64,000 nucleotides of DNA from Bacilli bacterium (GTDB lineage Bacteria; Bacillota_I; Bacilli_A; RF39; UBA660), in assembly GCA_017460175.1 (NCBI GenBank), contig JAFUBO010000005.1, positions 21,082 to 85,081 of the forward strand, given 5' to 3'. Every line of letters starts with the position of its first letter. The stretch's first letter is position 1. This document shows, one piece after another, positions 5,143 to 50,297 of the stretch. The notes beneath the pieces were generated by a model. It ran no database searches, was not told the origin of the DNA, and saw only the letters and a program-made list of their open reading frames with translations. The translations under genes were made by a program, and so were the position numbers.

Positions 5143-5667
5143 ATGAAAGAAATTGACACTAAAAAGGAAAAGAGAAAAATAAAAAATTATATTATTCTTT
5201 TATTATTATTTGTTGCATCATGTTGGTTAGTTTTATATTTATGCCAATTATATAGAATAAATGATGCAGAAAAGAAGAAGATACCTGTAATAGATGGAAT
5301 GATATATGAAATTTATAGTGAAGATTTAGATCACTATGTAGTTGATAATCCTAATACAGTAATATATATGTGTACTGCTAATGATGAGGATTGTAGATTG
5401 TTTGAAAAAAGTTTTAAAAAACTATTAAAAAATTATGATTATAGTGATCAATTAGTATATCTTAATTTAACTGATTTAAATCAAGAGGAATTTGTAGATT
5501 CATTTAATGAAAGATATAATTATAAAAATAAATTAAAAACAAAGTATCCAGCATTTGTATTATTTGAGGATGGTAAAGTAAAGGCAATTTTACAAAATAG
5601 TAATAAAAAAATGGATATAATGAAAGTAAAACAATTTTTAGAAATAAATAAAATAGGAGAAGAATAA
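5143..5667 (+). CDS. membrane-anchored thioredoxin-fold-like hypothetical protein
   Basis: N-terminal TM helix followed by roughly 130 aa that look like an alpha/beta fold. No CxxC motif. Confidence 0.45.
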   Translation: MKEIDTKKEKRKIKNYIILLLLFVASCWLVLYLCQLYRINDAEKKKIPVIDGMIYEIYSEDLDHYVVDNPNTVIYMCTANDEDCRLFEKSFKKLLKNYDYSDQLVYLNLTDLNQEEFVDSFNERYNYKNKLKTKYPAFVLFEDGKVKAILQNSNKKMDIMKVKQFLEINKIGEE

Positions 5668-15286: not shown

Positions 15287-15745
15287 ATGAAATATATAAA
15301 GGTAATGTTAGTAGGATTACTAGCTCTTATAGGTGTTGGTTATCGTAGCTTTGCTGCTGAAACGGATACTAATTTAAAAGGCGGTATATACTATGATAAT
15401 ATAGAGTATACTGATAACGTAGTTTTTAATGGTGTTGATGGTGTTAATTTAGATTATAATGCTTCTTTTACAACTCCTGGCGAATATTATGAATTATACT
15501 TTGATATAGTCAACTCTACTAAGTATGATATAGAAATATCCGAATATCTATGTAATGATGATGATAGACATATAGATTATGAATTAGTTTATGAAGATGG
15601 TTCTATGATTAATACTGGTGATATTATAGAAAAAGGTCAATCTAAAAGAATAAAATATAGAGTTTTATATAAAGAAGCTATTAAACAAGAAGAAGATTAT
15701 AAATTTGACACAAGTTTTTCAATATTGTATGAACAAGTAATGTAA
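15287..15745 (+). CDS. secreted protein, distant paralog of the TasA/camelysin-like family in this window (Sec-type signal peptide)
   Basis: Signal peptide with an AxA-like FAA|E cleavage site. The core (TTPGEYYELYFDIVNSTKYDIEI ... YELVYEDGSMINTGDIIEKGQSKRIKYRVLYKE) follows the same pattern as 19588, 20997 and 48987. Confidence 0.45.
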   Translation: MKYIKVMLVGLLALIGVGYRSFAAETDTNLKGGIYYDNIEYTDNVVFNGVDGVNLDYNASFTTPGEYYELYFDIVNSTKYDIEISEYLCNDDDRHIDYELVYEDGSMINTGDIIEKGQSKRIKYRVLYKEAIKQEEDYKFDTSFSILYEQVM

Positions 15746-17772: not shown

Positions 17773-18921
17773 ATGAAGTTAAGAAGTTTAAAGAATACAT
17801 TTGTATTGTTGATGTTAACTATTTATGTTGTTTTATATAAATTGTTTATATTTCAAAAATACATGCAGTATTCAGAAATAATAACAGCATCATTTTTAGC
17901 AGTTTTATTAGCAATTTCTATTGCTTTATTAGGATTTAGAAAAGATAAAAATAGTGTGCTTGGAAAGAATGTTTTTAAAATAGTAGTTTTTTATTTAGCA
18001 TTAACTTTTTTGGTAATGTATGGTTTAGGAATGATGGTAGGATTCTTAAAAAATGCGTATTCTAGAGATTTTAGTAGTATATTTGATAATATTTTTTCTC
18101 CAATAATTATAATAATAATGGTTGAGTTTATTAGATATACAGTAATAAATGCTAATAAAGATAAAAAAATTGTAGTTATATTAATTACATTGTTGTTAAT
18201 ACTATTAGAGTTAGTTATAAGTATTCGTAGTTTTGATTTTACTGATTTAGCAGGGTCATTTAATATAACTGCTACTATAATATTGCCATGTATATTTAAG
18301 AATTACTTATTAAGTTATTTTGCATACCATATTGGATACAAAATTCCAATTATGTATAGATTAATAATGGATATATATGTGTTTATAGTTCCATTAATAC
18401 CAAATTTAGGTGATTACGTTAATTCAATGATATCAATATCATTACCAATACTTATTTATATTAGTGTTTTTTCAATGATAGATGATAGAGTTAGTAGATC
18501 AGAACCAATCTTTAATAAAAAGACATTTACTGTTTGGGATATACCAGTAGCTATAGTGCTTATTTCTTTAGTTGCATTAATATCTGGATTTTTCCCACAT
18601 TATATGGTTGGTATAGGAAGTAATTCTATGAGTCCAGTCATTCGTAAAGGTGATGCTGTTATATTAAAAAAAGTAAATGACAAGACAGAATTAAGAAAAG
18701 GTGATATAATAGCATATAGTAATGGTAAATTAATTATAGTACATAGGATAAAACAAATTAACCATGAAGGTAATAAAATTACATATACTATGAAGGGAGA
18801 TGCTAATAATAGCAATGACCCTAGAAATGTATCAAGACAGCAAATAAAAGGTATAGTTAAATTTAGAATACCAGTAATAGCATGGCCAACTGTTTGGTTA
18901 ACTGAATTATTTAATAGTTAG
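17773..18921 (+). CDS. polytopic membrane domain (about 8 TM) fused to a C-terminal S26 type I signal peptidase of the SipW/archaeal-type
   Basis: C-terminal 100 aa carry S26 boxes: GSNSMSPVIRKGD (Ser box SMxP), IVHRI (His box), GDANNSNDP (box E). The N-terminal ~280 aa are eight hydrophobic segments with no recognised family. Confidence 0.7.
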   Translation: MKLRSLKNTFVLLMLTIYVVLYKLFIFQKYMQYSEIITASFLAVLLAISIALLGFRKDKNSVLGKNVFKIVVFYLALTFLVMYGLGMMVGFLKNAYSRDFSSIFDNIFSPIIIIIMVEFIRYTVINANKDKKIVVILITLLLILLELVISIRSFDFTDLAGSFNITATIILPCIFKNYLLSYFAYHIGYKIPIMYRLIMDIYVFIVPLIPNLGDYVNSMISISLPILIYISVFSMIDDRVSRSEPIFNKKTFTVWDIPVAIVLISLVALISGFFPHYMVGIGSNSMSPVIRKGDAVILKKVNDKTELRKGDIIAYSNGKLIIVHRIKQINHEGNKITYTMKGDANNSNDPRNVSRQQIKGIVKFRIPVIAWPTVWLTELFNS

Positions 18922-18931
18922 GAGAGATATA

Positions 18932-19549
18932 ATGAGAGAGAATAATAAGGGGATACTTTTGATTGTTATTGCGATAATTGCAGGGTTAGGTGGATATTTT
19001 TTACTAAATACAGAGTATAAAGGATATAGTATTTTATGTTTTACTGCTGCTGTAATTTTAGTAGGATTTGGAATAAAGTTTATTATAGATGGTCTTAATC
19101 CAGAAAAAGCATATCAAAGTAACATTAAGAATATATTAAATACATTTGATTCTATTTTAGTCAAAAGTAATTCAGTTCCTAAATTAGTAGGGAGAAATAT
19201 TATCATTGTAGAAGATATGGAAGATATGGTTGATGCTCAATTAGAAATAAGAAAACCAATTTGTTATTATAAACAAACTGAATCATGTTCATTTGTTTTA
19301 TTAGACGATAAAGAAGCTTATGTTTATGTTGAAAAATTAAATCCAGATGTAATTTCTCCAGTAGAAATAGAAATAAATGAGATACAATTAAAACAAAAAA
19401 ATACTGATGATATAGATTCTGAAATGTTAAAAGATATAGAGAAAACAACTATTGTTAGATTATCTAATAAAAAAAGTTATAAGGTATCACCAATTAGAAA
19501 AGATCATAAACAAAGAAAAACATCTATTGAAGATGTTGAAATCATATAA
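18932..19549 (+). CDS. two-TM membrane protein with cytoplasmic domain (unknown; possible accessory factor of the SipW/TasA-like locus)
   Basis: Starts 11 nt after the peptidase stop. Two N-terminal TM helices. No family recognised. Confidence 0.5.
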   Translation: MRENNKGILLIVIAIIAGLGGYFLLNTEYKGYSILCFTAAVILVGFGIKFIIDGLNPEKAYQSNIKNILNTFDSILVKSNSVPKLVGRNIIIVEDMEDMVDAQLEIRKPICYYKQTESCSFVLLDDKEAYVYVEKLNPDVISPVEIEINEIQLKQKNTDDIDSEMLKDIEKTTIVRLSNKKSYKVSPIRKDHKQRKTSIEDVEII

Positions 19550-19587
19550 TAATTTTATATTAATTTAAATATAGTAGGAGGGATAAG

Positions 19588-20136
19588 ATGAAGATAAAAT
19601 GGATGAAGTATAATAGAAAAAAAGTATTCATGTTCTTATCTCTTTTTTTGATATTATTTGGATTAACTTTTGGATATGCATCATTGACTACTAAAATTTC
19701 AATAGATGGTATTTCTAATGTAAAGGATGCTAAATGGAGTTTAAAATTTGATAATTTTAGTTCTATAGATGGTAGTGTTAGTCCATTGGAAGAACCAATA
19801 ATTGCAGATACAAGTGTGACTTTTTCAGCTAAAGTAAATGAACCAGGTGATTTTTATGGATTTACAGTGGATGTAGTAAATGAAGGAACAATAAATGCAA
19901 AAATAGGCAGTATTTCAATAACTCCTGATTTTTCAAATATAGATTATATAGATTCATTTATTGAATATTATGATGGTACTCCTATTTCGGTTAGTGATAC
20001 TTTAGATGCAGGAGAAACTAAAAAAATAAAAGTTTATTTAAAATATAAAGAAGGAATAGATGAGGATTTGTATCCAACAGAAAATCAACAGTTTCCTGTA
20101 ACAATTTCCCTAAAATATATTCAAGATATTAGCTAA
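19588..20136 (+). CDS. TasA/camelysin-like secreted protein with SipW-cognate-type N-terminal signal (paralog 1)
   Basis: N-terminus: basic stretch, TM helix, then GYASLTTKISIDG. Compare the TasA/CalY GTFAYFSD motif. The core EPGDFYGFTVDVVNEGTINAKI resembles the TasA PGDKLTKDFQFENNGSLAIK stretch. Ends ...YDGTPISVSDTLDAGETKKIKVYLKYKEG. Confidence 0.55.
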   Translation: MKIKWMKYNRKKVFMFLSLFLILFGLTFGYASLTTKISIDGISNVKDAKWSLKFDNFSSIDGSVSPLEEPIIADTSVTFSAKVNEPGDFYGFTVDVVNEGTINAKIGSISITPDFSNIDYIDSFIEYYDGTPISVSDTLDAGETKKIKVYLKYKEGIDEDLYPTENQQFPVTISLKYIQDIS

Positions 20137-20229
20137 GTATTATAATGAGTAATGTAAATAATAAAAAGAATAGATTTCTATTCTTTTCTTATTATGTATG
20201 ATATTATATATTTATAGTTGGAGGTAGTT

Positions 20230-20925
20230 ATGATAGTTATAGGTATTCCATTGAGATATGCACATTTAGAAGATGGAAGATGTATTTTATATTTGAGCGA
20301 GACAGTTCGAAGAACATTTCAAAGTGCAGGAGCATTAATATTACCGATAGTACAGGTACAGGATGTTAATTATGCTGACACTAGATATAATGAGTTTAAT
20401 GAATTAACAGATAAAGAAAAAGAAAATATTGATAAATATTTAAATATGGTTGATGGGGTGATATTACCTGGTGGATTTAAAATTACTCCTTTTGATGAAT
20501 ATGTATTAGAAAGATGTATTGAACGTGATATTCCAACTCTTGGAATTTGCTTGGGTATGCAGTTAATGAGTTGTTATAAAGAAGAATTTAAGGTTTTAGA
20601 AAATAATTCATTCATAAATCATAAACAAGAAAATGACGATGATCTTAGTCATAGTGTTATTGTGAACAAAGATTCTTATTTATATAAGATACTTGAAAAG
20701 GATGAAATTATGGTAAATAGTTTTCATAGATATCATGTTAGTGAGAATAGTTATTTTAATGTTTCTAGTAGAAGTGAAGATAATTATATAGAGGCAATTG
20801 AAATGAAAAATAAAAAATTTATTATGGGTGTTCAATGGCATCCTGAAATTAGTTATAATTTTGATGATAATTCTAAAAAAATTATCGATTATTTTATTAA
20901 TATATGTAAAGAAAGTGACAATTAA
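20230..20925 (+). CDS. class I glutamine amidotransferase-like hydrolase (peptidase C26, gamma-glutamyl-GABA hydrolase PuuD-like)
   Basis: GILPGG, nucleophile elbow LGICLGMQLM, and the His motif GVQWHPE. ATG at 20230 lies 5 nt after ggagg. The track begins at a TTG at 20218. Confidence 0.75.
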   Translation: MIVIGIPLRYAHLEDGRCILYLSETVRRTFQSAGALILPIVQVQDVNYADTRYNEFNELTDKEKENIDKYLNMVDGVILPGGFKITPFDEYVLERCIERDIPTLGICLGMQLMSCYKEEFKVLENNSFINHKQENDDDLSHSVIVNKDSYLYKILEKDEIMVNSFHRYHVSENSYFNVSSRSEDNYIEAIEMKNKKFIMGVQWHPEISYNFDDNSKKIIDYFINICKESDN

Positions 20926-20996
20926 TTTATACGTGATATTCATTTAACATATTATGTGTGTTATAATTTTTTTTATAGGATAGGAGTTGTTTATTA

Positions 20997-21731
20997 ATGG
21001 AAAATCAAGAACAAGTTTATAATAAACAAAAAAAAGGAAAAGATAAAAAAACAATAGTATTAATGGTTTTGTTACTATTATTAGTAACAGTAACAATAGG
21101 GTATGCAATATTATCTACAACAATAAAAATTAATGGGTCATCTACAATTCAACCAATTGCGAAATGGTGTATAGGTCCAAAGTGTGCGATTGAAGGTCAA
21201 GATGAATGTACTGATATTTCTAGTTGTAGTAATCCACCTGTGGAATGTCCAGCAAACGAAAAGTGTACAATTTTAGATTGTGATGCTAATCCAAATTCAT
21301 GTGATAATATTCCTGATCCAGAATATTGTGAAGATCAAAATAATTGTGATACAGGTTCTGTAATTTGGATGGAAGGAGATACAATTTATTTTAAACATAT
21401 TTTAGCTAAACCAGGGGATACTTTTATATTTTATGTTAAATATAATAATGGTGGTAATATAGATGCAAAGGTTAAAGATGTAGCTAAAAGTGCTTTAAAT
21501 GCTACTGCTCAAAGGTTTATGACTTATGATGTTACATATAACGATGGTAGTACTATTTCTCAAAATGATATATTAGCTGCAGGTGAAACTGCGATATTTA
21601 AAGTAACTGTAACATATAAATCTACTATTACAACTTTACCAACTGATGCGGAAATTGCACTTATAAATGAAATAGAAGATGGTCATACAGGTGCTACTTC
21701 ATTATTTACAGTTAATTATGAACAAAAGTGA
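20997..21731 (+). CDS. TasA/camelysin-like secreted protein with a 60-aa cysteine-rich insert (paralog 2)
   Basis: Same N-terminal motif (TIGYAILSTTIKINGSSTI), then a 10-Cys low-complexity module, then the KPGDTFIFYVKYNNGGNIDAKV and YDVTYNDGSTISQNDILAAGETAIFKVTVTYK core. Confidence 0.55.
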   Translation: MENQEQVYNKQKKGKDKKTIVLMVLLLLLVTVTIGYAILSTTIKINGSSTIQPIAKWCIGPKCAIEGQDECTDISSCSNPPVECPANEKCTILDCDANPNSCDNIPDPEYCEDQNNCDTGSVIWMEGDTIYFKHILAKPGDTFIFYVKYNNGGNIDAKVKDVAKSALNATAQRFMTYDVTYNDGSTISQNDILAAGETAIFKVTVTYKSTITTLPTDAEIALINEIEDGHTGATSLFTVNYEQK

Positions 21732-21783
21732 GACTAGATTTCTAGCCTTTTTTTTGTATAATAAAACGCAATTAGGTGATTTT

Positions 21784-22692
21784 ATGACTAAAAAAGAACT
21801 TCAAAAACTTATTGAATATACTAGTATAAGTGGTGGTTTAAATAATAATTTTTGTAATTATTCTAAATTATATAGTATGACTACTGAAAATATATATGGT
21901 TTTTTAAGTAAATATAATTTAAAAAATAAAAAAATTTTAACAGTAGCAGGTAGCGGAGATCAAAGATTAAATTGTTATTCTTTAGGAGCAGATGAGGTTA
22001 CTTGTTTTGATATTAATTTATTAAGTCATTTTCAATTACAATTAAAGGATGAAGCAATTAAACATTTAAATTATAATGAGTTCTTGGATTTTTTTGGTAT
22101 TATAAGAGACAATACTAATAATTTTTTAAAAGATGATTTGTTTGATAAAATTAAAGTTTATTTAAACGATGATGTATATGGTTTTTATAATTTTTTAATT
22201 AATGAATTTAGAAGAGATCCGTTAAGAAATATTTATTATGATTTTGATAATGATTTAAAATTAATAAAAAAAATAAATCATTATATTAATGAAGATAATT
22301 ATTATGATTTGTCACATTCGCTTAATAATAAGCAAAATATGTTTATTGAAGCTAATGTTGATAATTTACCTGAAATCTTAGATGGTGAGAAGTTTGATAT
22401 GATTTTGTTATCTAATATTAGTGATTACATACATTATATTTATAGTGATAATAACTTAGAAAGATATAGAGAATTAATTGATAAATTAATAGGTAATTTA
22501 AATTTATATGGAATTATTCAAGTTGGTTATATTTATTCTAGATATAGTAAGGGTGAAGATGTCAGTAAGTTTCATTTTAATGAAATTAGAAATAAGGTAT
22601 TTCCAAATGATATTTTTCATAGTATATTTGTAGATTCTTATTATAATGATGGTACATATGATAAAGTAATTACTTATCAAAAATTAAAATAG
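21784..22692 (+). CDS. hypothetical protein with possible Rossmann SAM-methyltransferase-like motif
   Basis: ATG at 21784 follows aggtga. The track ORF begins further upstream, overlapping the previous gene. ILTVAGSGDQ resembles MTase motif I and CFDIN resembles motif II. Weak evidence. Confidence 0.4.
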   Translation: MTKKELQKLIEYTSISGGLNNNFCNYSKLYSMTTENIYGFLSKYNLKNKKILTVAGSGDQRLNCYSLGADEVTCFDINLLSHFQLQLKDEAIKHLNYNEFLDFFGIIRDNTNNFLKDDLFDKIKVYLNDDVYGFYNFLINEFRRDPLRNIYYDFDNDLKLIKKINHYINEDNYYDLSHSLNNKQNMFIEANVDNLPEILDGEKFDMILLSNISDYIHYIYSDNNLERYRELIDKLIGNLNLYGIIQVGYIYSRYSKGEDVSKFHFNEIRNKVFPNDIFHSIFVDSYYNDGTYDKVITYQKLK

Positions 22693-22703
22693 TAAAAAAA
22701 GTG

Positions 22704-22732
22704 TTGACAAATAAGGGGTTTTAGCATAAAAT
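22704..22732 (+). promoter_or_regulatory. consensus sigma-A promoter (TTGACA-17-TAAAAT) of the infC-rpmI-rplT operon
   Basis: ttgaca at 22704-22709, tataat-like taaaat at 22727-22732. Confidence 0.55.
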
Positions 22733-22874
22733 ATTACTAGTCAAGAAAAAAGGAAAGAGATTTATATCCACCTGATCTGCGAATAGCGATAGGTAAAAAG
22801 CCGAAAATAAAATATATTTATTTTAATTATGGTTTTTAAGTGGATATAAATTTTATATCTGCTTTTCTTATTTT
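22733..22874 (+). promoter_or_regulatory. structured infC leader (candidate L20-responsive attenuator)
   Basis: Perfect 12-bp long-range inverted repeat: atttatatccac at 22760-22771 pairs with gtggatataaat at 22850-22861, enclosing about 78 nt, just upstream of the infC RBS. Firmicute infC operons are autoregulated by L20 through leader RNA structures. Confidence 0.4.
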
Positions 22875-23420
22875 ATGGAGGTGTTAGATATCGCAAAAGA
22901 TAATAATAACATGTTGATCAATGATCAAATTAAGGTTCCTGAAGTATTAGTAATTGGACCTAATGGTGAGCAAGTAGGAGTTAAATCAATTAATGATGCA
23001 TTAACTTTGGCTAGTTATGCAGCACTTGATTTAGTTTTAATAAGCCCAAATGCAAATCCGCCAGTTTGTAAAGTAATGGATTATAATAAATTCCGTTATG
23101 AAAAACAAAAAAAGGCTAAAGAAGCTTTGAAGAAACAAAAGGCTACTATGTCAGAACTTAAAGAGTATCGTTTATCACCAGTTATTGATGTTGGAGATTT
23201 TGAAACAAAATTAAGAAATGCAACTAAGTATCTAGAAAAGGGAGATAGAATTAAACTTACAATTCGTTTTAAGGGTCGTCAAATGGCTCATACAGAATTA
23301 GGTATGGAAGTTCTTGAACGCTTTGCCGACAGAGTTAAAGATTATGCAGATATAGAACAAAGTCCTAAGTTAGATGGTAGAACTATGACTTGTGTTTTAG
23401 TACCAAAGAAAGACAAATAA
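22875..23420 (+). CDS. infC: translation initiation factor IF-3
   Basis: MLINDQIKVPEVLVIGPNGEQVGV...ALTLA...LDLVLISPNANPPVCKVMDY.KF.YE is colinear with IF3. The exact start is uncertain, as IF3 genes often use non-AUG starts. Confidence 0.85.
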   Translation: MEVLDIAKDNNNMLINDQIKVPEVLVIGPNGEQVGVKSINDALTLASYAALDLVLISPNANPPVCKVMDYNKFRYEKQKKAKEALKKQKATMSELKEYRLSPVIDVGDFETKLRNATKYLEKGDRIKLTIRFKGRQMAHTELGMEVLERFADRVKDYADIEQSPKLDGRTMTCVLVPKKDK

Positions 23421-23649: not shown

Positions 23650-24252
23650 ATGGCAAGAGTAAAGAATGGAGCAGTTACAAAAGCTCGTCATAAAAAAGTT
23701 TTAAAAGAAGCTAAAGGTTACTTTGGTAGTAAGCATAGATTATATAAAACAGCAAAAGAACAATTAATGCACTCTGGACAATATGCATTCAGAGATAGAA
23801 AACAAAAGAAAAGAGATTTCAGAAAATTATGGATTACAAGAATCAATGCTGCTTGTAGACAAAATGATATTTCTTATTCAAGATTTATTGAAGGTTTAAC
23901 AAAAGCAGGAGTTGAAGTTAATAGAAAGATGCTAAGTGAAATCGCTATTAATGATCCAAAAGCATTTAGTAATTTAGTAAAAACTGCTAAAGATGGTAAG
24001 GCTGGAAAAATCAAACCAGCTACTGAAGTTACTGGAAATGAAGTAACTATTGGTGCTAAAAAAGCTACAACAGTAAAAAAAGCAGAAGTAAAAGATGATA
24101 AAAAAGAAGTAAAGAAAACAACAACAAAGAAAACTACAACAGCAAAGAAAGAAGTTAAAGAAGAAAAGAAAACAACAACTAAAAAAACAACAAGTACTGC
24201 TAAAAAGACAACAACAACTAAAAAAGCAAGTACTACTAAAAAGGAAAAATAG
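23650..24252 (+). CDS. rplT: 50S ribosomal protein L20 with ~80-aa Lys/Thr-rich C-terminal extension
   Basis: [24 protein letters not shown]...[33 protein letters not shown] matches canonical L20 for about 118 aa. The tail is [13 protein letters not shown]... repeats. Confidence 0.85.
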
Positions 24253-24346: not shown

Positions 24347-25339
24347 ATGACTGTTATATCAATGAATTATTTATTAGAAGCTGGTGTTCAATTTGGACAT
24401 CAAAAAAGAAGATGGAATCCAAAAATGAAGGAATATATCTTCACTACAAGAGATGATATTTATATTATCGATTTACAAAAAACTGTAAAAAAATTAGAAG
24501 AAGCTTATGAAGCTTTAAAAGAAATTGCTCAAAATGAAGGAAAAGTATTATTTGTAGGTACTAAGAAACAAGCTCAAGAAGCTGCTGAAGAATGTGCTAC
24601 AAGAACTAACATGTATTTTGTTAATGAAAGATGGTTAGGTGGAACTTTAACTAACTTCAAAACTATTCGTTCTAGAATTAGAAGAATGGAAGAAATCGAA
24701 AAAATGGAAACTGATGGAACTTTCGAAGCTTTACCAAAGAAAGAAGTAATTGGTTTAAAGAAGGAATATGAAAAATTAAATAAAAACTTAAGAGGAATTC
24801 GTGAAATGAAAAGAATGCCTCAAGCAATGATAATTGTAGATCCTCGTAAAGAAGAAATTGCAATTAAAGAAGCTCGTATTTTAGGTATCCCAGTATTTGG
24901 TGTAGTTGATACAAACTGTGATCCAGATATGGTTGATTATGTTATTCCAGGTAATGATGATGCAGTTAGATCTGTTAAATTGTTAATTGGTGCTTTAACT
25001 AATGCAATTGCTGAAGTTAATGGTAATGAAGTAATTGATTATATTAGTGAAGATGATAAAAATGTTAAAGAAGAAGTAGTTGCAAAAGAAGAAGTAAAAG
25101 AAGAAAAGAAAACAACTAAGAAAGTAGAAAAAGAAGTAAAAGAGGATAAAAAAGTAGAAAAAGCTCCTAAAGAAGAAGTTAAAGAAGAGAAAAAAGAAAC
25201 TAAAAAAGTAGCTAAAAAAGTAGAAGAAGATTTAAGTTCATTAACATTAGCTGATTTAAAGGCAAAAGCAAAAGAAGCAGGAATTAAAGGATATTCTACA
25301 ATGAAAAAAGCTGAATTAGTTGAAGCTTTAACTAAATAG
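24347..25339 (+). CDS. rpsB: 30S ribosomal protein S2 with K/E-rich C-terminal extension ending in a Rho_N/SAP-like helix motif
   Basis: [30 protein letters not shown] and VVDTNCDPD match S2. The extra ~90 aa are a KEEVKEEKK low-complexity region followed by [30 protein letters not shown]. Confidence 0.9.
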
Positions 25340-42984: not shown

Positions 42985-43626
42985 ATGAAAAAAGTATTAT
43001 TAATATTAGTATTATTATTGTTTCCAATGATTGTAAATGCTAAAACTCCAAATTTAGAAGAAACATTAAAAGTAATTAAGAATATTGAAAATGTTTTAGT
43101 TGATGAAAATATAAAAATTGAATCTACTAGTGTTGATGATAATAATATTATTTTTAATATAAATGGTGAAAAAAAGATGATACCATATGAATTTAAAAAT
43201 AATAAGTTTTCATTTACGGGAGGTAGTTTTATCATTAATAATGATAAGAAGATAGTTGGAGAAATAAAAGATAACGAATATGCTTTCTATCTATATTCAA
43301 TATTAGAAAATAAGTCAACGATACCATATGATATTAATAATTATTATAATAATGATAATATAATTAAATTGGTTAATGAAAATTATAAAGATAATTATAT
43401 CGAAGATACAAATACTTTTGGTATTACTTTAAAAAATTCTGCTAATAAAGTAACAATAGTATATGATTATTATTTAGATGGTGATTATCCTGTGTTAGAA
43501 ATAGAAAATTTAACTGATGATTTAAAAAATCCAGCTACAGGTAATATTAGTTTGTTGATAACGATAATGTTGATATCAGTTGTTTTAATAGGTGCATATA
43601 CTTGTTTAGGATCTAGAAAAGAATAA
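42985..43626 (+). CDS. secreted protein with C-terminal PxTG-like sorting signal (NPATG + TM + basic tail)
   Basis: Signal peptide MKKVLLILVLLLFPMIVNA. C-terminus KNPATGNISLLITIMLISVVLIGAYTCLGSRKE. Confidence 0.45.
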   Translation: MKKVLLILVLLLFPMIVNAKTPNLEETLKVIKNIENVLVDENIKIESTSVDDNNIIFNINGEKKMIPYEFKNNKFSFTGGSFIINNDKKIVGEIKDNEYAFYLYSILENKSTIPYDINNYYNNDNIIKLVNENYKDNYIEDTNTFGITLKNSANKVTIVYDYYLDGDYPVLEIENLTDDLKNPATGNISLLITIMLISVVLIGAYTCLGSRKE

Positions 43627-47669: not shown

Positions 47670-48056
47670 ATGGGTGAATTTATCAGAAGACTTATACGTT
47701 GGATTATTTTTATAATTATTGTTGTGCTATTTATATTACTAATCATAAAACTTGCTAATAAGAATAATACTACTAAAAAAACAAAAAGGGTTTTAAATAC
47801 AGGTGTTGAGAAAATAAAAAAAGAAAAGAATAAATTTAGTAATGACAAAAAAAGTAAAAAGAATATAAATAGTAATTCTACAAAAGATAATAAAGAAACA
47901 ATAAATAAAGATAATGATAGTAATAATATTGTTACTTCAACATTAGAAGTAAATACTCCAGATACTGGTACAGATAGTTACTTATATATATTAGGTGTTG
48001 CAGTAATTAGTAGTGGAGTATATTATATTTACAAAAACAGAGAATTAAGTAATTAA
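47670..48056 (+). CDS. small Lys-rich surface protein with N-terminal TM/signal and C-terminal PxTG-like sorting signal (TPDTG + TM + KNRELSN)
   Basis: RBS gtaggaggg. C-terminus NTPDTGTDSYLYILGVAVISSGVYYIYKNRELSN. Confidence 0.45.
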   Translation: MGEFIRRLIRWIIFIIIVVLFILLIIKLANKNNTTKKTKRVLNTGVEKIKKEKNKFSNDKKSKKNINSNSTKDNKETINKDNDSNNIVTSTLEVNTPDTGTDSYLYILGVAVISSGVYYIYKNRELSN

Positions 48057-48103: not shown

Positions 48104-48952
48104 ATGAATAAAACTATTAGAAGATTATTTGTAATACTATTATTAATGTTTAGTTTTTATTATACTAATAGAATAATAGATTTTTTGAAAGAACAAGATC
48201 CTATTATGAAAGAAATAAAAAAAACAAAAGATAAATATAAAATTAAATCAGTAAATGCTAAAATAATAGATAATAATATGATACCTGGTAAAGATGGAAA
48301 AAATATTGATTATAAAAAATCTTATAATAAAATGAAGCATTATGGTATGTATAATGAATCATTAACTGTTTTGAAGGAAGTAAAACCAGAAATTTCAATA
48401 GATGATAATTATGACAAGTATATAATTAGTGGTAATGAAGATAGTAGAAGTGTATCATTGGTTTTTGTTGTAAAAAAAGAAGATAATATAGATAAAATAT
48501 TAAAAATATTAGAAAAAGAAAAAGTATCAGGCAATTTTTTTATAGATGGTACTTATTTAGAAAATAATGTATTAAAATTAAAAAGTATGGAAAATCATGA
48601 AATAGAAATATTAAGTTATGATAATTCATATAATAAATCTTTATTTGAAACATCTATATCGTATTTAGAAAATATAGTGAATGATGATGTTAAATATTGT
48701 TATAGTGAAAAAGATAATAATAAATTAATTGATTTGTGTAAAAAAAATAAACTTCATACTATAAAACCTACACTAATTATTAAAAAGAATTTATATATGC
48801 AAGTTAAACAAAATTTAAGTAATGGAATTATTGTTTCTATTGATATTAATAATTATAATGAAAAAGAATTAATCCCAACAATAGATTATATAATTGAAAA
48901 AGGTTATAAAATAGTAAAATTAAATGAATTGTTATCTGAAAAAGACATGTAA
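48104..48952 (+). CDS. polysaccharide deacetylase family protein (NodB homology; YlxY/PdaB-like sporulation protein)
   Basis: N-terminal TM. NodB-like segment (SLVFVV..., FFIDGTYLENN). Sits downstream of pnp, as ylxY does in B. subtilis. Confidence 0.65.
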   Translation: MNKTIRRLFVILLLMFSFYYTNRIIDFLKEQDPIMKEIKKTKDKYKIKSVNAKIIDNNMIPGKDGKNIDYKKSYNKMKHYGMYNESLTVLKEVKPEISIDDNYDKYIISGNEDSRSVSLVFVVKKEDNIDKILKILEKEKVSGNFFIDGTYLENNVLKLKSMENHEIEILSYDNSYNKSLFETSISYLENIVNDDVKYCYSEKDNNKLIDLCKKNKLHTIKPTLIIKKNLYMQVKQNLSNGIIVSIDINNYNEKELIPTIDYIIEKGYKIVKLNELLSEKDM

Positions 48953-48986: not shown

Positions 48987-50297
48987 TTGATATTTTTTAA
49001 TAATCTATTTGATAAAATAGTAATAGGTGGTAGTATGAAAAACAAGAAAAAAAATAGATATTTATTTTTGTTTTTACTTTTATTGGGAATAAGTGTAGGA
49101 TATGCTTTTTTATCAACAACATTAAAAATAAATGGAACGACAAATATTACAAAACAATCATGGAATGTTTATTGGGATAATGTAGAGGTTTCGAGTGGTA
49201 GTATAAGTCAGAATTTGCCAATTATTACACAAAACCAAGGAGATCAAGTAAATACAAAAATATCATGGAATGTAACATTAACTAAGCCAAAAGATTTTTA
49301 TGAATTTACAGTTGATGCGGTGAATGCAGGTTCAATTGATGCGATGATAACAAATATAGATAATAGTATTTCTCCAGAATTACCAAGTTATATTAAATAT
49401 TATGTAACATATGCAGATGGAATAGTTCCAGAAGAAAAACATTTACTAGCGAAAAAGATTGGAAATACACCATCTAGAGAAAAATATAAAATTAGAGTAG
49501 AATTTAGTGATGATATTACAAGAGAAGAATTTGATAGTATTCCTTCTACTGCGCTTTCATTTACATTTGATTATAATGTTACTTATTCTCAAGCAAGTAA
49601 TGAGGCTATTAATATGAAAACTTGGATATTACCAGAGGGTAAAGAAGTATCAACATTACAAGTAGGAGATGAATTATGTTATAGAGGGCAATGCTTCAAT
49701 TTTATAAAGTATGATGGTGATAATATAGTAATGCTTGCAAAATATAATTTGAAGGTTGGAAAGAATTTTACTAATAGTGGGATTGAAACAAGTGAATATA
49801 AAATTAATGATCCTTTATATGGCTTACAAAGTCCAGATTCAAGAGGTTATATAGATGGAGCTAGTAATTATAATGGTCAAGTACAATTTTCTCAATTAAA
49901 TTATTGGCAAAATACAGGATTATCATATCCTAGTTATATTTATGATTCTATAAATAAGAAAGGTATTTCGGGTACAAATAATTATTCAATAGCTTATTAT
50001 GTAGAATTGTATAAAAATAATTTAGAAAATATAGGTGTTGATGTAGAAAGTGCAAGATTGTTAAATTATAATGATGTAATAGATAATAGTATAGGATGTT
50101 CTTACGGAACAGATAATTGTCCAACAGAAGGGAATCTTTCATTTATAACAAATACATCATTCTGGATTGGTTCAGCATTTTCTGATTATACTGTGTGTGT
50201 TATAAATTCAAATGGTTATTTTGTTTCTACTGGTTGGAATTCTTATGGAGGATGGGGAGTACGTCCGGTTATAGAAGTAAATAAAAATAATATTTAA
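48987..50297 (+). CDS. TasA/camelysin-like secreted protein (paralog 3) with ~250-aa C-terminal extension
   Basis: N-terminal ...LGISVGYAFLSTTLKINGTTNI has the same motif as 19588 and 20997. Core KPKDFYEFTVDAVNAGSIDAMI. The long C-terminal region is rich in Tyr/Asn/Gly. Confidence 0.55.
   Translation: MIFFNNLFDKIVIGGSMKNKKKNRYLFLFLLLLGISVGYAFLSTTLKINGTTNITKQSWNVYWDNVEVSSGSISQNLPIITQNQGDQVNTKISWNVTLTKPKDFYEFTVDAVNAGSIDAMITNIDNSISPELPSYIKYYVTYADGIVPEEKHLLAKKIGNTPSREKYKIRVEFSDDITREEFDSIPSTALSFTFDYNVTYSQASNEAINMKTWILPEGKEVSTLQVGDELCYRGQCFNFIKYDGDNIVMLAKYNLKVGKNFTNSGIETSEYKINDPLYGLQSPDSRGYIDGASNYNGQVQFSQLNYWQNTGLSYPSYIYDSINKKGISGTNNYSIAYYVELYKNNLENIGVDVESARLLNYNDVIDNSIGCSYGTDNCPTEGNLSFITNTSFWIGSAFSDYTVCVINSNGYFVSTGWNSYGGWGVRPVIEVNKNNI

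What the first reader, a model, noticed from the sequence alone, without database searches (positions are those of the whole stretch)
21168..21347. Ten-cysteine low-complexity insert in a TasA-like protein
CIGPKCAIEGQDECTDISSCSNPPVECPANEKCTILDCDANPNSCDNIPDPEYCEDQNNC is inserted between the signal motif and the conserved core. Cysteines are spaced every 5-9 residues in a Pro/Asp/Asn-rich context. This could be a disulfide-knotted or metal-binding module, or a cross-linking handle for a spore or fibre surface protein. It is unusual for Firmicute extracellular proteins.
Basis: seen in the sequence. Interest (0 to 1): 0.5.

Follow-up and report, generated by a model that had tools for sequence, protein, structure and literature searches.

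The report
Cysteine-stapled insert in secreted fibre subunit
A secreted protein of an uncultured rumen bacterium, probably a building block of an extracellular fibre, carries a 60-residue acidic stretch whose ten cysteines most likely form five small disulfide loops; relatives carry 0 to 16 cysteines there, almost always an even number.

Summary
Window 21168-21347 (+) encodes the quoted 60 residues with 10 Cys, inside a 244-aa gene (20997-21731) that is base-for-base identical in four independent assemblies.

It matches no known Cys-rich domain. The stretch is the expanded form of a fast-evolving acidic, Pro/Asn-rich linker found in about 110 relatives from ruminant-gut Bacilli MAGs. Linker Cys counts are 0, 2, 4, 6, 8, 10, 14 or 16, even in 103 of 104 proteins. 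Neighbouring cysteines 4-8 residues apart are gained or lost together. This indicates serial intramolecular disulfide loops: C58-C63, C71-C77, C84-C90, C95-C102 and C111-C117.

The host protein is not a TasA-family member (no Pfam hit; hhalign 5%). Its wider family aligns with archaeal AbpX, a TasA-superfamily fibre subunit that polymerises by donor-strand complementation (hhalign 91% with the signal peptide, 22% without). The gene sits in the AbpX-type context: a polytopic signal peptidase I, DUF5305 and paralogous subunits.

Best reading: a disulfide-stapled, variable surface module on an AbpX-like fibre subunit. Disulfides, cleavage and polymerisation are inferred, not shown. I rate it a new variant of a known kind, of moderate interest.

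The parts
20982..20986 (+). Shine-Dalgarno AGGAG, 10 nt upstream of the start codon
   Evidence: Read directly from the sequence
20997..21731 (+). Gene for the 244-aa secreted protein (identical to NCBI 'MAG: hypothetical protein IJ097_03480 [Bacilli bacterium]')
   Evidence: identical DNA in 4 assemblies
20997..21107 (+). Residues 1-37: polar/basic head, hydrophobic helix and conserved V/I-G-Y-A motif. Predicted signal peptide, with inferred cleavage after A37.
   Evidence: TM segment 20-38; AF2 helix 15-39; G35 invariant; hhalign places GYA on AbpX 'TYA', the predicted cleavage site used for mature AbpX
21108..21167 (+). Residues 38-57 (ILSTTIKINGSSTIQPIAKW): amphipathic N-terminal strand, candidate donor strand, ending at invariant W57
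   Evidence: L39, S40, I45, G47, S49 and W57 are invariant or nearly so. Unstructured coil in both monomer AF2 models. Aligned with the AbpX donor strand WSETLSLSATI.
21168..21347 (+). The finding: residues 58-117, a 10-Cys acidic Pro/Asn-rich module (W57-W124 stretch: D+E 20.6%, pI 4.05)
   Evidence: AF2 pLDDT 89-97 over residues 51-120
21168..21185 (+). Inferred disulfide loop 1, C58-x4-C63 (WCIGPKC). Present only in the 8-16-Cys relatives, where it replaces the family's conserved W-D.
21207..21227 (+). Inferred disulfide loop 2, C71-x5-C77. Absent as one 15-aa block in the 8-Cys relatives P0003-P0005.
21246..21266 (+). Inferred disulfide loop 3, C84-x5-C90 (CPANEKC). This is the ancestral, nearly invariant pair (consensus CPxGExC-TI). 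Both Cys were lost together twice (P0083/96/98: V..A; P0013: Y..V).
21279..21302 (+). Inferred disulfide loop 4, C95-x6-C102 (loop length 6-8 in relatives)
21327..21347 (+). Inferred disulfide loop 5, C111-x5-C117 (CEDQNNC; loop 5-10 in relatives). Sits where 2-Cys relatives have the acidic TPDDGTGDN segment.
21357..21725 (+). Residues 121-243: Cys-free beta-sandwich core with the KPGD-x8-N-x-G-x-IDAK motif
   Evidence: AF2 strands 121-243, pLDDT 95-98; weak DUF11 matches in 76 of 104 members; hhalign to the AbpX core
17773..18921 (+). Dedicated signal peptidase I: about 8-9 N-terminal membrane segments plus an archaeal/SipW-type catalytic domain
   Evidence: TIGR02228 E 5.4e-21, 75 bits, above its cut-off; Peptidase_S24/S26; hydropathy; syntenic in relatives
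18932..19549 (+). DUF5305 protein (two TM segments), the proposed accessory subunit of the signal peptidase
   Evidence: PF17231 E 3.7e-11; role proposed in 10.64898/2026.01.04.697558
19588..20136 (+). Insert-free paralogue (182 aa, no Cys) with the same signal motif, N-terminal strand and core
   Evidence: BLASTP E 1e-12; AF2 model
15287..15745 (+). Paralogue (152 aa) with an ordinary signal peptide and core but no N-terminal strand; candidate acceptor-only tip or cap subunit
49035..50297 (+). Distant paralogue (about 420 aa) with signal motif, N-terminal strand and core, plus a C-terminal domain carrying local Cys pairs; candidate adhesin or tip subunit
   Evidence: relatives carry DUF6273

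Best explanation
The gene encodes a Sec-exported subunit of an AbpX-like (TasA-superfamily) extracellular fibre system of an uncultured ruminant-gut Bacilli lineage. The inferred steps are as follows. (1) The N-terminal signal peptide is cut after the conserved G-Y-A by the polytopic signal peptidase I encoded 2 kb upstream, helped by DUF5305. (2) The freed amphipathic strand ILSTTIKINGSSTI inserts into the beta-sandwich of a neighbouring subunit (donor-strand complementation), so that the protein polymerises, alone or with its paralogues. (3) The 60-residue stretch between the donor strand and the sandwich is the expanded form of a family-wide acidic Pro/Asn-rich linker. Its ten cysteines form five consecutive short intramolecular disulfide loops (58-63, 71-77, 84-90, 95-102, 111-117). 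These loops staple it into a compact, rigid, protease-resistant module at the fibre surface or subunit junction. The loops between the cysteines are free to vary. This accounts for the fast sequence and length change and for the stepwise addition or loss of whole Cys pairs among relatives. Shown here: the sequence, the family pattern, the gene context, and a confident compact AF2 prediction. Inferred: cleavage, disulfide formation and connectivity, polymerisation, and the role of the module.
For: Export and processing:
- The protein has a basic head, a TM helix and the conserved VGYA motif.
- The locus encodes a signal peptidase I (TIGR02228, E 5.4e-21, above its cut-off) with about 8-9 extra membrane segments, plus DUF5305.
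- The cluster is syntenic in relatives. This matches the abpX loci described in 10.64898/2026.01.04.697558: a 10-TM SPase I, DUF5305, minor subunits and tip proteins.

Homology to AbpX:
- hhalign of the 35-sequence family profile against AbpX gives probability 91.3% and E 9.6e-7 over 152 columns. It places VGYA|xLSTxLNInG on GLTYA|QWSETLSLSATIS.
- The mature part alone scores 30.4, against 9.3-17.9 for 25 shuffles.
- The mature protein has pI 4.3 and 14% D+E, like AbpX relatives.
- The N-terminal strand is unstructured in both monomer AF2 models, as reported for AbpX.

Disulfides:
- The linker Cys count is even in 103 of 104 proteins: 0, 2, 4, 6, 8, 10, 14 or 16.
- On a core-domain NJ tree, 13 of 14 inferred changes in Cys number are even-sized.
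- Sequential pairing gives loops of 4-8 residues (rarely 10-11). In all even-count relatives it never requires a C-x-C bond.
- Pair 2 is missing as a single block in P0003-5.
- The ancestral pair was lost jointly twice, each time to non-polar residues.
- P0105/P0107 gained a pair across the W-x-DGN-x-x-Y hairpin.
- Cys columns are invariant, while the rest of the linker is 46% identical against 70% for the core.
- AF2 places the module with pLDDT 89-97.
- Wider-family C-terminal domains also show an even bias, 98 even against 42 odd.
- AbpX itself carries one disulfide, confirmed by mass spectrometry.
Against: - No coordinates were available, so no Cys-Cys distance could be read from the model. 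The connectivity rests on evolutionary pattern only.
- The rumen is strongly reducing.
- No DsbA, BdbD, VKOR or DsbB gene is seen in the 64-kb window.
- Anaerobic Gram-positives as a group show no even-Cys bias (PMC2823432).
- Without the signal peptide, the hhalign probability to AbpX falls to 22%. The Cys-linker subfamily profile alone reaches only 7.5%.
- An HMMER profile of the family does not reach the AbpX chains in the PDB.
- About half of the orthologues in related MAGs have no signal-peptidase cluster within the flank fetched (up to 6 kb).
- One relative (P0020) has 13 Cys.
Confidence: 0.55

Rival explanations
1. The cysteines stay reduced in the anoxic rumen and act as thiolate ligands for metal ions (Zn, Fe, Ni, Cu), making the insert a metal-binding or metal-scavenging module.
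For: The habitat is strongly reducing, and no disulfide-forming enzyme was identified in the window. The stretch is Cys- and Asp-rich. AbpX relatives are metal (Ca2+) responsive.
Against: There are no CxxC or CxxH motifs and no His in the insert. Cys numbers change in twos, not fours, and most relatives have a single pair, too few ligands for a thiolate site. The ancestral pair is replaced jointly by V..A or Y..V, as expected for a lost disulfide rather than a lost ligand set. Loop lengths inside pairs vary from 4 to 11 residues. No Pfam metal-binding family matches.
Confidence: 0.1
2. The cysteines make intermolecular disulfides that cross-link subunits or fibres (a redox-controlled cross-linking handle, as in B. 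subtilis BslA), rather than intramolecular loops.
For: The protein is a probable fibre or matrix subunit. By the AbpX alignment, the insert lies in the segment that borders the donor-strand groove and the subunit junction. BslA shows that Firmicute matrix proteins can use Cys pairs for oxygen-dependent dimerisation (10.1101/138099).
Against: Strict evenness, block gain and loss of neighbouring Cys, and short turn-rich loops (CPxGExC, CxGPxC) fit local closure. AF2 folds the monomer's insert confidently. Ten exposed thiols would risk uncontrolled aggregation.
Confidence: 0.12
3. The protein is not a fibre subunit. It stays anchored by its uncleaved N-terminal helix, or is released as a monomer, and the Cys-rich segment is simply a stiff stalk or variable surface epitope of a cell-surface Ig-like protein.
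Against: The VGYA motif and the following strand are much better conserved than ordinary signal peptides. A dedicated peptidase with DUF5305 and several paralogues, including one without the strand, is syntenic in several genomes. hhalign aligns the motif and strand with those of AbpX.
Confidence: 0.18
4. The stretch is an artefact: an assembly or frameshift error, or a non-functional low-complexity expansion.
For: None found.
Against: The DNA is identical in four independent assemblies. The ORF is intact and has an RBS. Cys positions are conserved across relatives at 45-65% identity.
Confidence: 0.01

Closest known systems
AbpX of Pyrodictium abyssi and AbpX-like proteins (TasA superfamily); preprint 10.64898/2026.01.04.697558
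   Same: Long signal peptide ending in x-Y-A, followed directly by an amphipathic strand. Small acidic beta-sandwich (pI about 4, about 15% D+E). Locus with a polytopic TIGR02228 signal peptidase I, DUF5305 and paralogous minor or tip subunits. hhalign 91%. AbpX also has one intramolecular disulfide.
   Different: The donor strand lacks the conserved aromatic at position 2 and acidic residue at position 4. The segment carrying the AbpX Ca2+ ligands D18, D46, D48 and E52 is replaced here by the Cys/Asp/Pro module, and the family's conserved W-D is W-C in this protein. The AbpX disulfide lies elsewhere, in the core. There are up to 16 Cys here against 2. The host is a rumen Bacilli lineage. Homology is weak without the signal peptide (22%).
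TasA / camelysin family of Bacillus (Pfam Peptidase_M73; PDB 5OF1, 8AUR)
   Same: Secreted matrix-fibre subunit processed by a dedicated SipW-type signal peptidase. Beta-sandwich with a PGD...N.G motif. Polymerises by donor-strand exchange (established for TasA).
BslA of Bacillus subtilis (10.1101/138099)
   Same: A Firmicute biofilm-matrix protein with an Ig-like fold, whose function depends on cysteines forming disulfides outside the cell.
   Different: BslA has two C-terminal Cys that make intermolecular bonds in the oxic layer. Here there are ten Cys in local pairs inside one module, in an anaerobe's protein. No sequence relationship.
Disulfide-bounded loops of pilins (conserved disulfide of chaperone-usher subunits such as DraE, PMC5625045; D-region loop of type IV pilins, from general knowledge)
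   Same: Fibre subunits in which a disulfide stabilises the fold or frames a surface-exposed, variable loop.
   Different: Those subunits have one disulfide, made by periplasmic DsbA in Gram-negatives. Here there is a serial array of up to eight in a monoderm. Analogy only.
Serial small-disulfide, Asp-rich repeats: thrombospondin type-3 repeats, beetle antifreeze protein coils (recalled from general knowledge, not tested beyond Pfam)
   Same: About 12-13 residues per Cys pair, turn-rich acidic loops, and disulfides between sequence-near Cys that stiffen an otherwise irregular chain.
   Different: No Pfam match to TSP_3, EGF, granulin or any other Cys-rich family. No regular sequence repeat. 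Resemblance in principle only.

Membership tests
TasA/camelysin (Pfam PF12389 Peptidase_M73; NCBIfam TasA models) | Significant match to the family HMM | tested here: not met
   No hit for the protein at E<=1. No Peptidase_M73 among the families matched by 104 members at E<=10.
TasA/camelysin | Profile-level similarity to B. subtilis TasA | tested here: not met
   hhalign of family profile A2 against TasA: probability 5.4%, limited to the PGD..N.G motif.
TasA/camelysin | TasA-like fold | tested here: inconclusive
TasA/camelysin | Adjacent SipW-type signal peptidase | tested here: met
   17773-18921: TIGR02228 E 5.4e-21, above its cut-off. The SipW equivalog NF046067 reaches only 58 bits against a 190-bit cut-off.
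AbpX-like clade of the TasA superfamily | Sequence homology to P. abyssi AbpX | tested here: inconclusive
   hhalign probability 91.3%, E 9.6e-7 with the signal peptide. The mature part alone gives 22%, but its score of 30.4 exceeds all 25 shuffles (<=17.9). The Cys-linker subfamily profile alone gives 7.5%. HMMER does not reach 9SJ2 or 9RHP.
AbpX-like clade of the TasA superfamily | Dedicated polytopic (about 10 TM) signal peptidase I in the locus | tested here: met
   About 8-9 hydrophobic segments precede the catalytic domain; TIGR02228; syntenic in relatives. Feature as described.
AbpX-like clade of the TasA superfamily | DUF5305 accessory protein in the locus | tested here: met
   18932-19549: PF17231 E 3.7e-11, above its cut-off; conserved in relatives.
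AbpX-like clade of the TasA superfamily | Amphipathic N-terminal donor strand directly after the cleavage site | tested here: met
   ILSTTIKINGSSTI alternates hydrophobic and polar residues and is conserved. It is aligned to WSETLSLSATI and is disordered in the monomer models.
AbpX-like clade of the TasA superfamily | Aromatic residue at donor-strand position 2 and acidic residue at position 4 (Ca2+-mediated strand docking) | tested here: not met
   The mature N-terminus would be I-L-S-T (consensus x-L-S-x). Requirement as stated.
AbpX-like clade of the TasA superfamily | Acidic protein (pI about 4, about 15% Asp+Glu) | tested here: met
   Mature protein: pI 4.32, 14.0% D+E; W57-W124 stretch: 20.6%.
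AbpX-like clade of the TasA superfamily | Polymerisation by donor-strand complementation; Ca2+ response | not testable with these tools
   Only monomer predictions without coordinates were available. Multimer prediction or EM is needed.
Known Cys-rich modules (EGF, granulin, TSP type 3, knottins, zinc ribbons) | Match to a curated family model or a solved chain | tested here: not met
   Insert alone: no Pfam family at E<=1 and no PDB chain at E<=10. Whole protein: none.
DUF11 / CARDB-type Ig-like repeat | Match above the Pfam gathering threshold | tested here: inconclusive
   Weak DUF11 hits in 76 of 104 members (best E 1.7e-5), and none for the query itself. This reflects the shared PGD..N.G sandwich motif.

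The most novel reading that the evidence does not exclude
In this rumen lineage, covalent disulfide staples may have taken over the job that bound Ca2+ does in AbpX fibres. In the family-AbpX alignment, the Ca ligand D18 falls on the family's conserved W-D, which is W-C58 in the Cys-rich clade. The D46/D48/E52 loop falls in the segment that became the Cys/Asp module, where the acidic loop CEDQNNC is closed by C111-C117. Fibre stiffening or assembly would then be set by oxidative folding rather than by calcium. That would imply an as yet unidentified extracytoplasmic disulfide-forming activity in an obligately anaerobic, low-GC Bacilli lineage. The membrane-anchored DUF6568 protein at 5143-5667, with its C-x6-C, is one untested candidate.
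Probability: 0.12. Interest if true: 0.7.

Novelty: new variant of a known kind. Interest (0 to 1): 0.45.

Why it matters
The profile search found about 7,250 clusters (at 50% identity) for the wider family. All sampled members are labelled 'hypothetical protein'. Linking this family to the recently described AbpX/TasA-superfamily fibres gives a working annotation for a common surface system of gut Bacilli.

The Cys-linker subfamily is a natural series (0 to 16 Cys) in which disulfide loops were added one pair at a time to the same site of a fibre subunit. That makes it a clean system for asking how disulfides tune fibre stiffness, protease resistance or antigenic variation.

It is also a sequence-level sign that some anaerobic Firmicutes make extracellular disulfides, contrary to the general pattern for that group (PMC2823432). 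AbpX-type proteins are being explored as hydrogel materials, so disulfide-stapled variants could be of practical interest.

Tried and rejected
- Word-index protein search with the insert alone found nothing, not even the protein itself. It is uninformative.
The roughly 140 of 635 matched stretches that I inspected were TGY/CTG-type trinucleotide-repeat DNA translating to poly-Cys. It is useless as designed; a pattern with non-Cys anchors would be needed.
- Foldseek against the PDB gave nothing at E<0.01.
- HMMER profiles A1 and A2 against PDB sequences gave only a spurious signal-peptide match to CdtB.
- A search with the insert-free paralogue gave 9 unannotated hits only.
- No tandem repeat was found in the gene, so the modules are not recent DNA duplications.
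- The promoter/terminator scan was uninformative: fewer promoter-like sites than in shuffles, and no + strand terminator.
- EGF, granulin or TSP3 identity was rejected, because no model matches.
- A lanthipeptide or radical-SAM type of cross-link was not pursued, because no such enzyme gene was seen among the ORFs flanking the gene in the window or in the relatives' called genes.
- A spore-coat role was rejected for lack of any evidence.
Full report
**1. The observation**

They are residues 58-117 of a 244-aa ORF, 20997-21731 (+). An AGGAG lies 10 nt upstream of the start codon.

The window has 25% G+C, and Cys makes up 1.1% of its ORF residues. Ten Cys in 60 residues has a probability of about 1e-9 at that frequency. 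All ten Cys of the protein lie in this stretch.

The stretch is compositionally biased (C, D, P, N, E, I), but no tandem DNA repeat was detected.

The protein is identical to NCBI 'MAG: hypothetical protein IJ097_03480 [Bacilli bacterium]'. The 735-nt gene is base-for-base identical in four independent assemblies. An assembly error is excluded.

**2. What surrounds it**

The protein begins with a polar/basic head, one hydrophobic helix and a conserved V/I-G-Y-A motif. An amphipathic strand, ILSTTIKINGSSTI, follows and ends at the invariant W57. Then come the Cys-rich stretch and a Cys-free beta core with the motif KPGD-x8-N-x-G-x-IDAK.

Upstream on the same strand lie three related genes:
- a signal peptidase I of the archaeal/SipW type (TIGR02228, E 5.4e-21, above its cut-off) with about 8-9 additional membrane segments;
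- a DUF5305 protein;
- a 182-aa paralogue with the same N-terminus and core but no Cys and no insert.

Two further paralogues lie elsewhere in the window. One, at 15287-15745, lacks the N-terminal strand. The other, at 49035-50297, has a large C-terminal domain.

The cluster sits between glyS and infC-rpmI-rplT. It is syntenic in several relatives, together with a Peptidase_C26/GATase gene. All relatives come from ruminant-gut MAGs labelled Bacilli, Bacillales or Erysipelotrichaceae.

**3. The insert in its family**

A database search found about 110 clusters at 40-64% identity. In an alignment of 104 sequences, the segment between the two conserved Trp residues (W57 and W124) is 39-99 residues long. 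It averages about 20% Asp+Glu and is rich in Pro and Asn.

The number of Cys in this linker across the 104 sequences is:

| Cys in linker | Proteins |
|---|---|
| 0 | 9 |
| 2 | 52 |
| 4 | 18 |
| 6 | 2 |
| 8 | 4 |
| 10 | 6 |
| 13 | 1 |
| 14 | 4 |
| 16 | 8 |

The count is even in 103 of 104 proteins. On a neighbour-joining tree of the core domain, ordered parsimony infers 14 changes in Cys number, 13 of them even-sized.

If Cys are paired in order (1-2, 3-4...), the loops are 4-8 residues, rarely 10-11. The distances between pairs range from 1 to 24. In every even-count relative, C-x-C motifs always fall between pairs, never within one.

Whole pairs come and go together:
- The 8-Cys proteins P0003-5 lack C71 and C77 as one 15-residue block.
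- The nearly invariant ancestral pair (consensus CPxGExC, here C84-C90) was lost jointly twice, to V..A in P0083/96/98 and to Y..V in P0013.
- P0105 and P0107 gained a pair across the conserved W-x-DGN-x-x-Y hairpin.

Within the 8-10-Cys clade the Cys are conserved wherever their module is present. The remaining linker columns are 46% identical, against 70% for the core.

None of 146 representatives of the wider family has Cys in this segment unless it belongs to this subfamily. The wider family's C-terminal domains are also even-biased, 98 even against 42 odd.

AlphaFold2 with the family alignment gives mean pLDDT 90.7, with 89-97 over residues 51-120. The module is compact and turn-rich, with a few beta bridges, rather than a disordered linker.

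Taken together, this is the signature of intramolecular disulfides between sequence neighbours: C58-C63, C71-C77, C84-C90, C95-C102 and C111-C117.

**4. Is it a known domain?**

No. The whole protein and the insert alone match no Pfam or NCBIfam family. The insert matches no PDB chain at E<=10.

**5. Is the host protein TasA-like?**

Not at family level. There is no Peptidase_M73 hit in any of the 104 members; the recurrent weak hit is DUF11 (76 of 104, best E 1.7e-5). hhalign of the family profile against B. subtilis TasA (sequence verified against 8AUR) gives 5%.

The informative link is AbpX of Pyrodictium abyssi. A 2026 preprint places AbpX in the TasA superfamily. It shows that AbpX polymerises by donor-strand complementation with Ca2+ bound at the strand-groove interface. 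It also describes abpX loci with a 10-TM signal peptidase I, DUF5305, minor subunits and tip proteins.

I took the AbpX sequence from the preprint's supplement. hhalign of the 35-sequence family profile against it gives probability 91.3% and E 9.6e-7 over 152 columns. It aligns VGYA|xLSTxLNInG with GLTYA|QWSETLSLSATIS, that is, the predicted cleavage site and the donor strand.

The controls temper this result:
- The signal peptide alone, with the mature part shuffled, gives scores of 22.6-31.8.
- The mature part alone gives 30.4 (probability 22%), against 9.3-17.9 for shuffles.
- The Cys-linker subfamily profile on its own reaches only 7.5%.
- HMMER does not reach the AbpX PDB chains.

The acidic character (pI 4.3, 14% D+E) fits AbpX relatives. 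The N-terminal strand is disordered in the monomer models, as reported for AbpX. The conserved aromatic at position 2 and acidic residue at position 4 of AbpX-type donor strands are missing.

I therefore treat the protein as a probable, divergent member of the AbpX-like branch of the TasA superfamily. The gene context supports this more strongly than the sequence does. The wider family is very large (7,253 clusters at E<=1e-3) and unnamed.

**6. Mechanism proposed**

The steps are:
- export through Sec;
- cleavage after G-Y-A by the locus's own peptidase with DUF5305;
- polymerisation by insertion of the freed strand into a neighbour's sandwich, possibly with the paralogues (the strand-less 152-aa protein as a cap or tip, the 420-aa one as an adhesin);
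- the Cys module, stapled by five local disulfides, forms a rigid, protease-resistant, fast-evolving surface element next to the subunit junction.

Every step after export is inferred.

In the family-AbpX alignment, the AbpX Ca ligands D18 and D46/D48/E52 fall at the family's W-D (W-C58 here) and in the segment replaced by the insert. This prompts the more novel idea that disulfides substitute for Ca2+ bridging. That part of the alignment is not reliable enough to claim it.

**7. Rivals**

- Metal binding is disfavoured. There is no CxxC and no His, Cys change in twos, and most relatives have only one pair, which is replaced by hydrophobic residues when lost.
- Intermolecular cross-linking, as in BslA, is disfavoured by the block gain and loss of neighbouring Cys and by the confident monomer fold. 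It is not excluded.
- A non-polymerising surface protein remains possible. The fold matches are generic, and about half of the orthologues in related MAGs have no peptidase cluster within the flank fetched.

**8. Weak points**

- The rumen is reducing.
- No Dsb-type gene is in the window.
- Anaerobic Gram-positives in general show no even-Cys bias (PMC2823432). This makes the pattern notable, but it also leaves open who forms the bonds.
- A membrane-anchored DUF6568 protein with a C-x6-C (5143-5667) has a weak similarity to the thioredoxin-like domain of ERp29. It is an untested lead.

**9. Verdict**

The feature is a lineage-specific, modular array of probable disulfide loops grafted onto an AbpX-like fibre subunit. 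I rate it a new variant of a known kind. It is of moderate interest for fibre biology and for oxidative protein folding in anaerobic Firmicutes.

Noticed in passing
window 15287-15745 (+): A 152-aa paralogue of the subunit family has an ordinary signal peptide and the sandwich core but lacks the conserved N-terminal strand. An acceptor-only subunit of this kind would be expected at a fibre tip or cap. It is conserved in related loci.
   Followed up: partly
window 49035-50297 (+), with 48104-48952 and 47670-48056: A second small cluster. It holds a paralogue of about 420 aa with a C-terminal domain carrying local Cys pairs (ELCYRGQC, GCSYGTDNC; relatives carry DUF6273), next to a polysaccharide-deacetylase-like gene and a small K/N-rich membrane protein.
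   Followed up: partly
window 42985-43626 (+) and 47670-48056 (+): Both proteins end in what looks like a cell-wall sorting signal with an unusual motif ([NT]-P-x-T-G, then a hydrophobic stretch and a basic tail): ...KNPATGNISLLITIMLISVVLIGAYTCLGSRKE and ...VNTPDTGTDSYLYILGVAVISSGVYYIYKNRELSN. No sortase gene was looked for.
   Followed up: no
window 5143-5667 (+): A DUF6568 protein (E 1.6e-34) has an N-terminal membrane helix and a C-x6-C (YMCTANDEDCRLF). It shows a weak PDB sequence similarity to the thioredoxin-like N-domain of ERp29 (E 0.057). It is a possible exported thiol-disulfide oxidoreductase, and no paper in the searched library mentions the family.
   Followed up: partly
window 23650-24252 (+) and 24347-25339 (+): Ribosomal proteins L20 and S2 carry long Lys/Thr/Glu-rich C-terminal extensions. 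Precomputed Pfam lists Rho_N on the identical S2 (other assemblies of this gene) and a weak SAP on L20 of a relative (L001).
   Followed up: no
window 20218-20925 (+): A Peptidase_C26 / class-I glutamine amidotransferase gene sits inside the fibre-gene cluster. It keeps that position in every relative with enough flank. No functional link is evident.
   Followed up: no
window 17773-18921 (+): The signal peptidase I carries about 250 residues of polytopic membrane domain ahead of the catalytic domain. This is the unusual architecture that the AbpX preprint reports for AbpX-associated peptidases.
   Followed up: partly
whole window: The window has 25% G+C. Nearly all genes are on the + strand, and GC skew is positive over the stretch profiled (19500-22900).
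   Followed up: no
P0020 (relative, 858-bp contig): This is the only family member with an odd number of linker Cys (13). It lacks the Cys of the 'GEC' position present in its 14-Cys relatives. It could be a real free thiol or a sequencing error.
   Followed up: no
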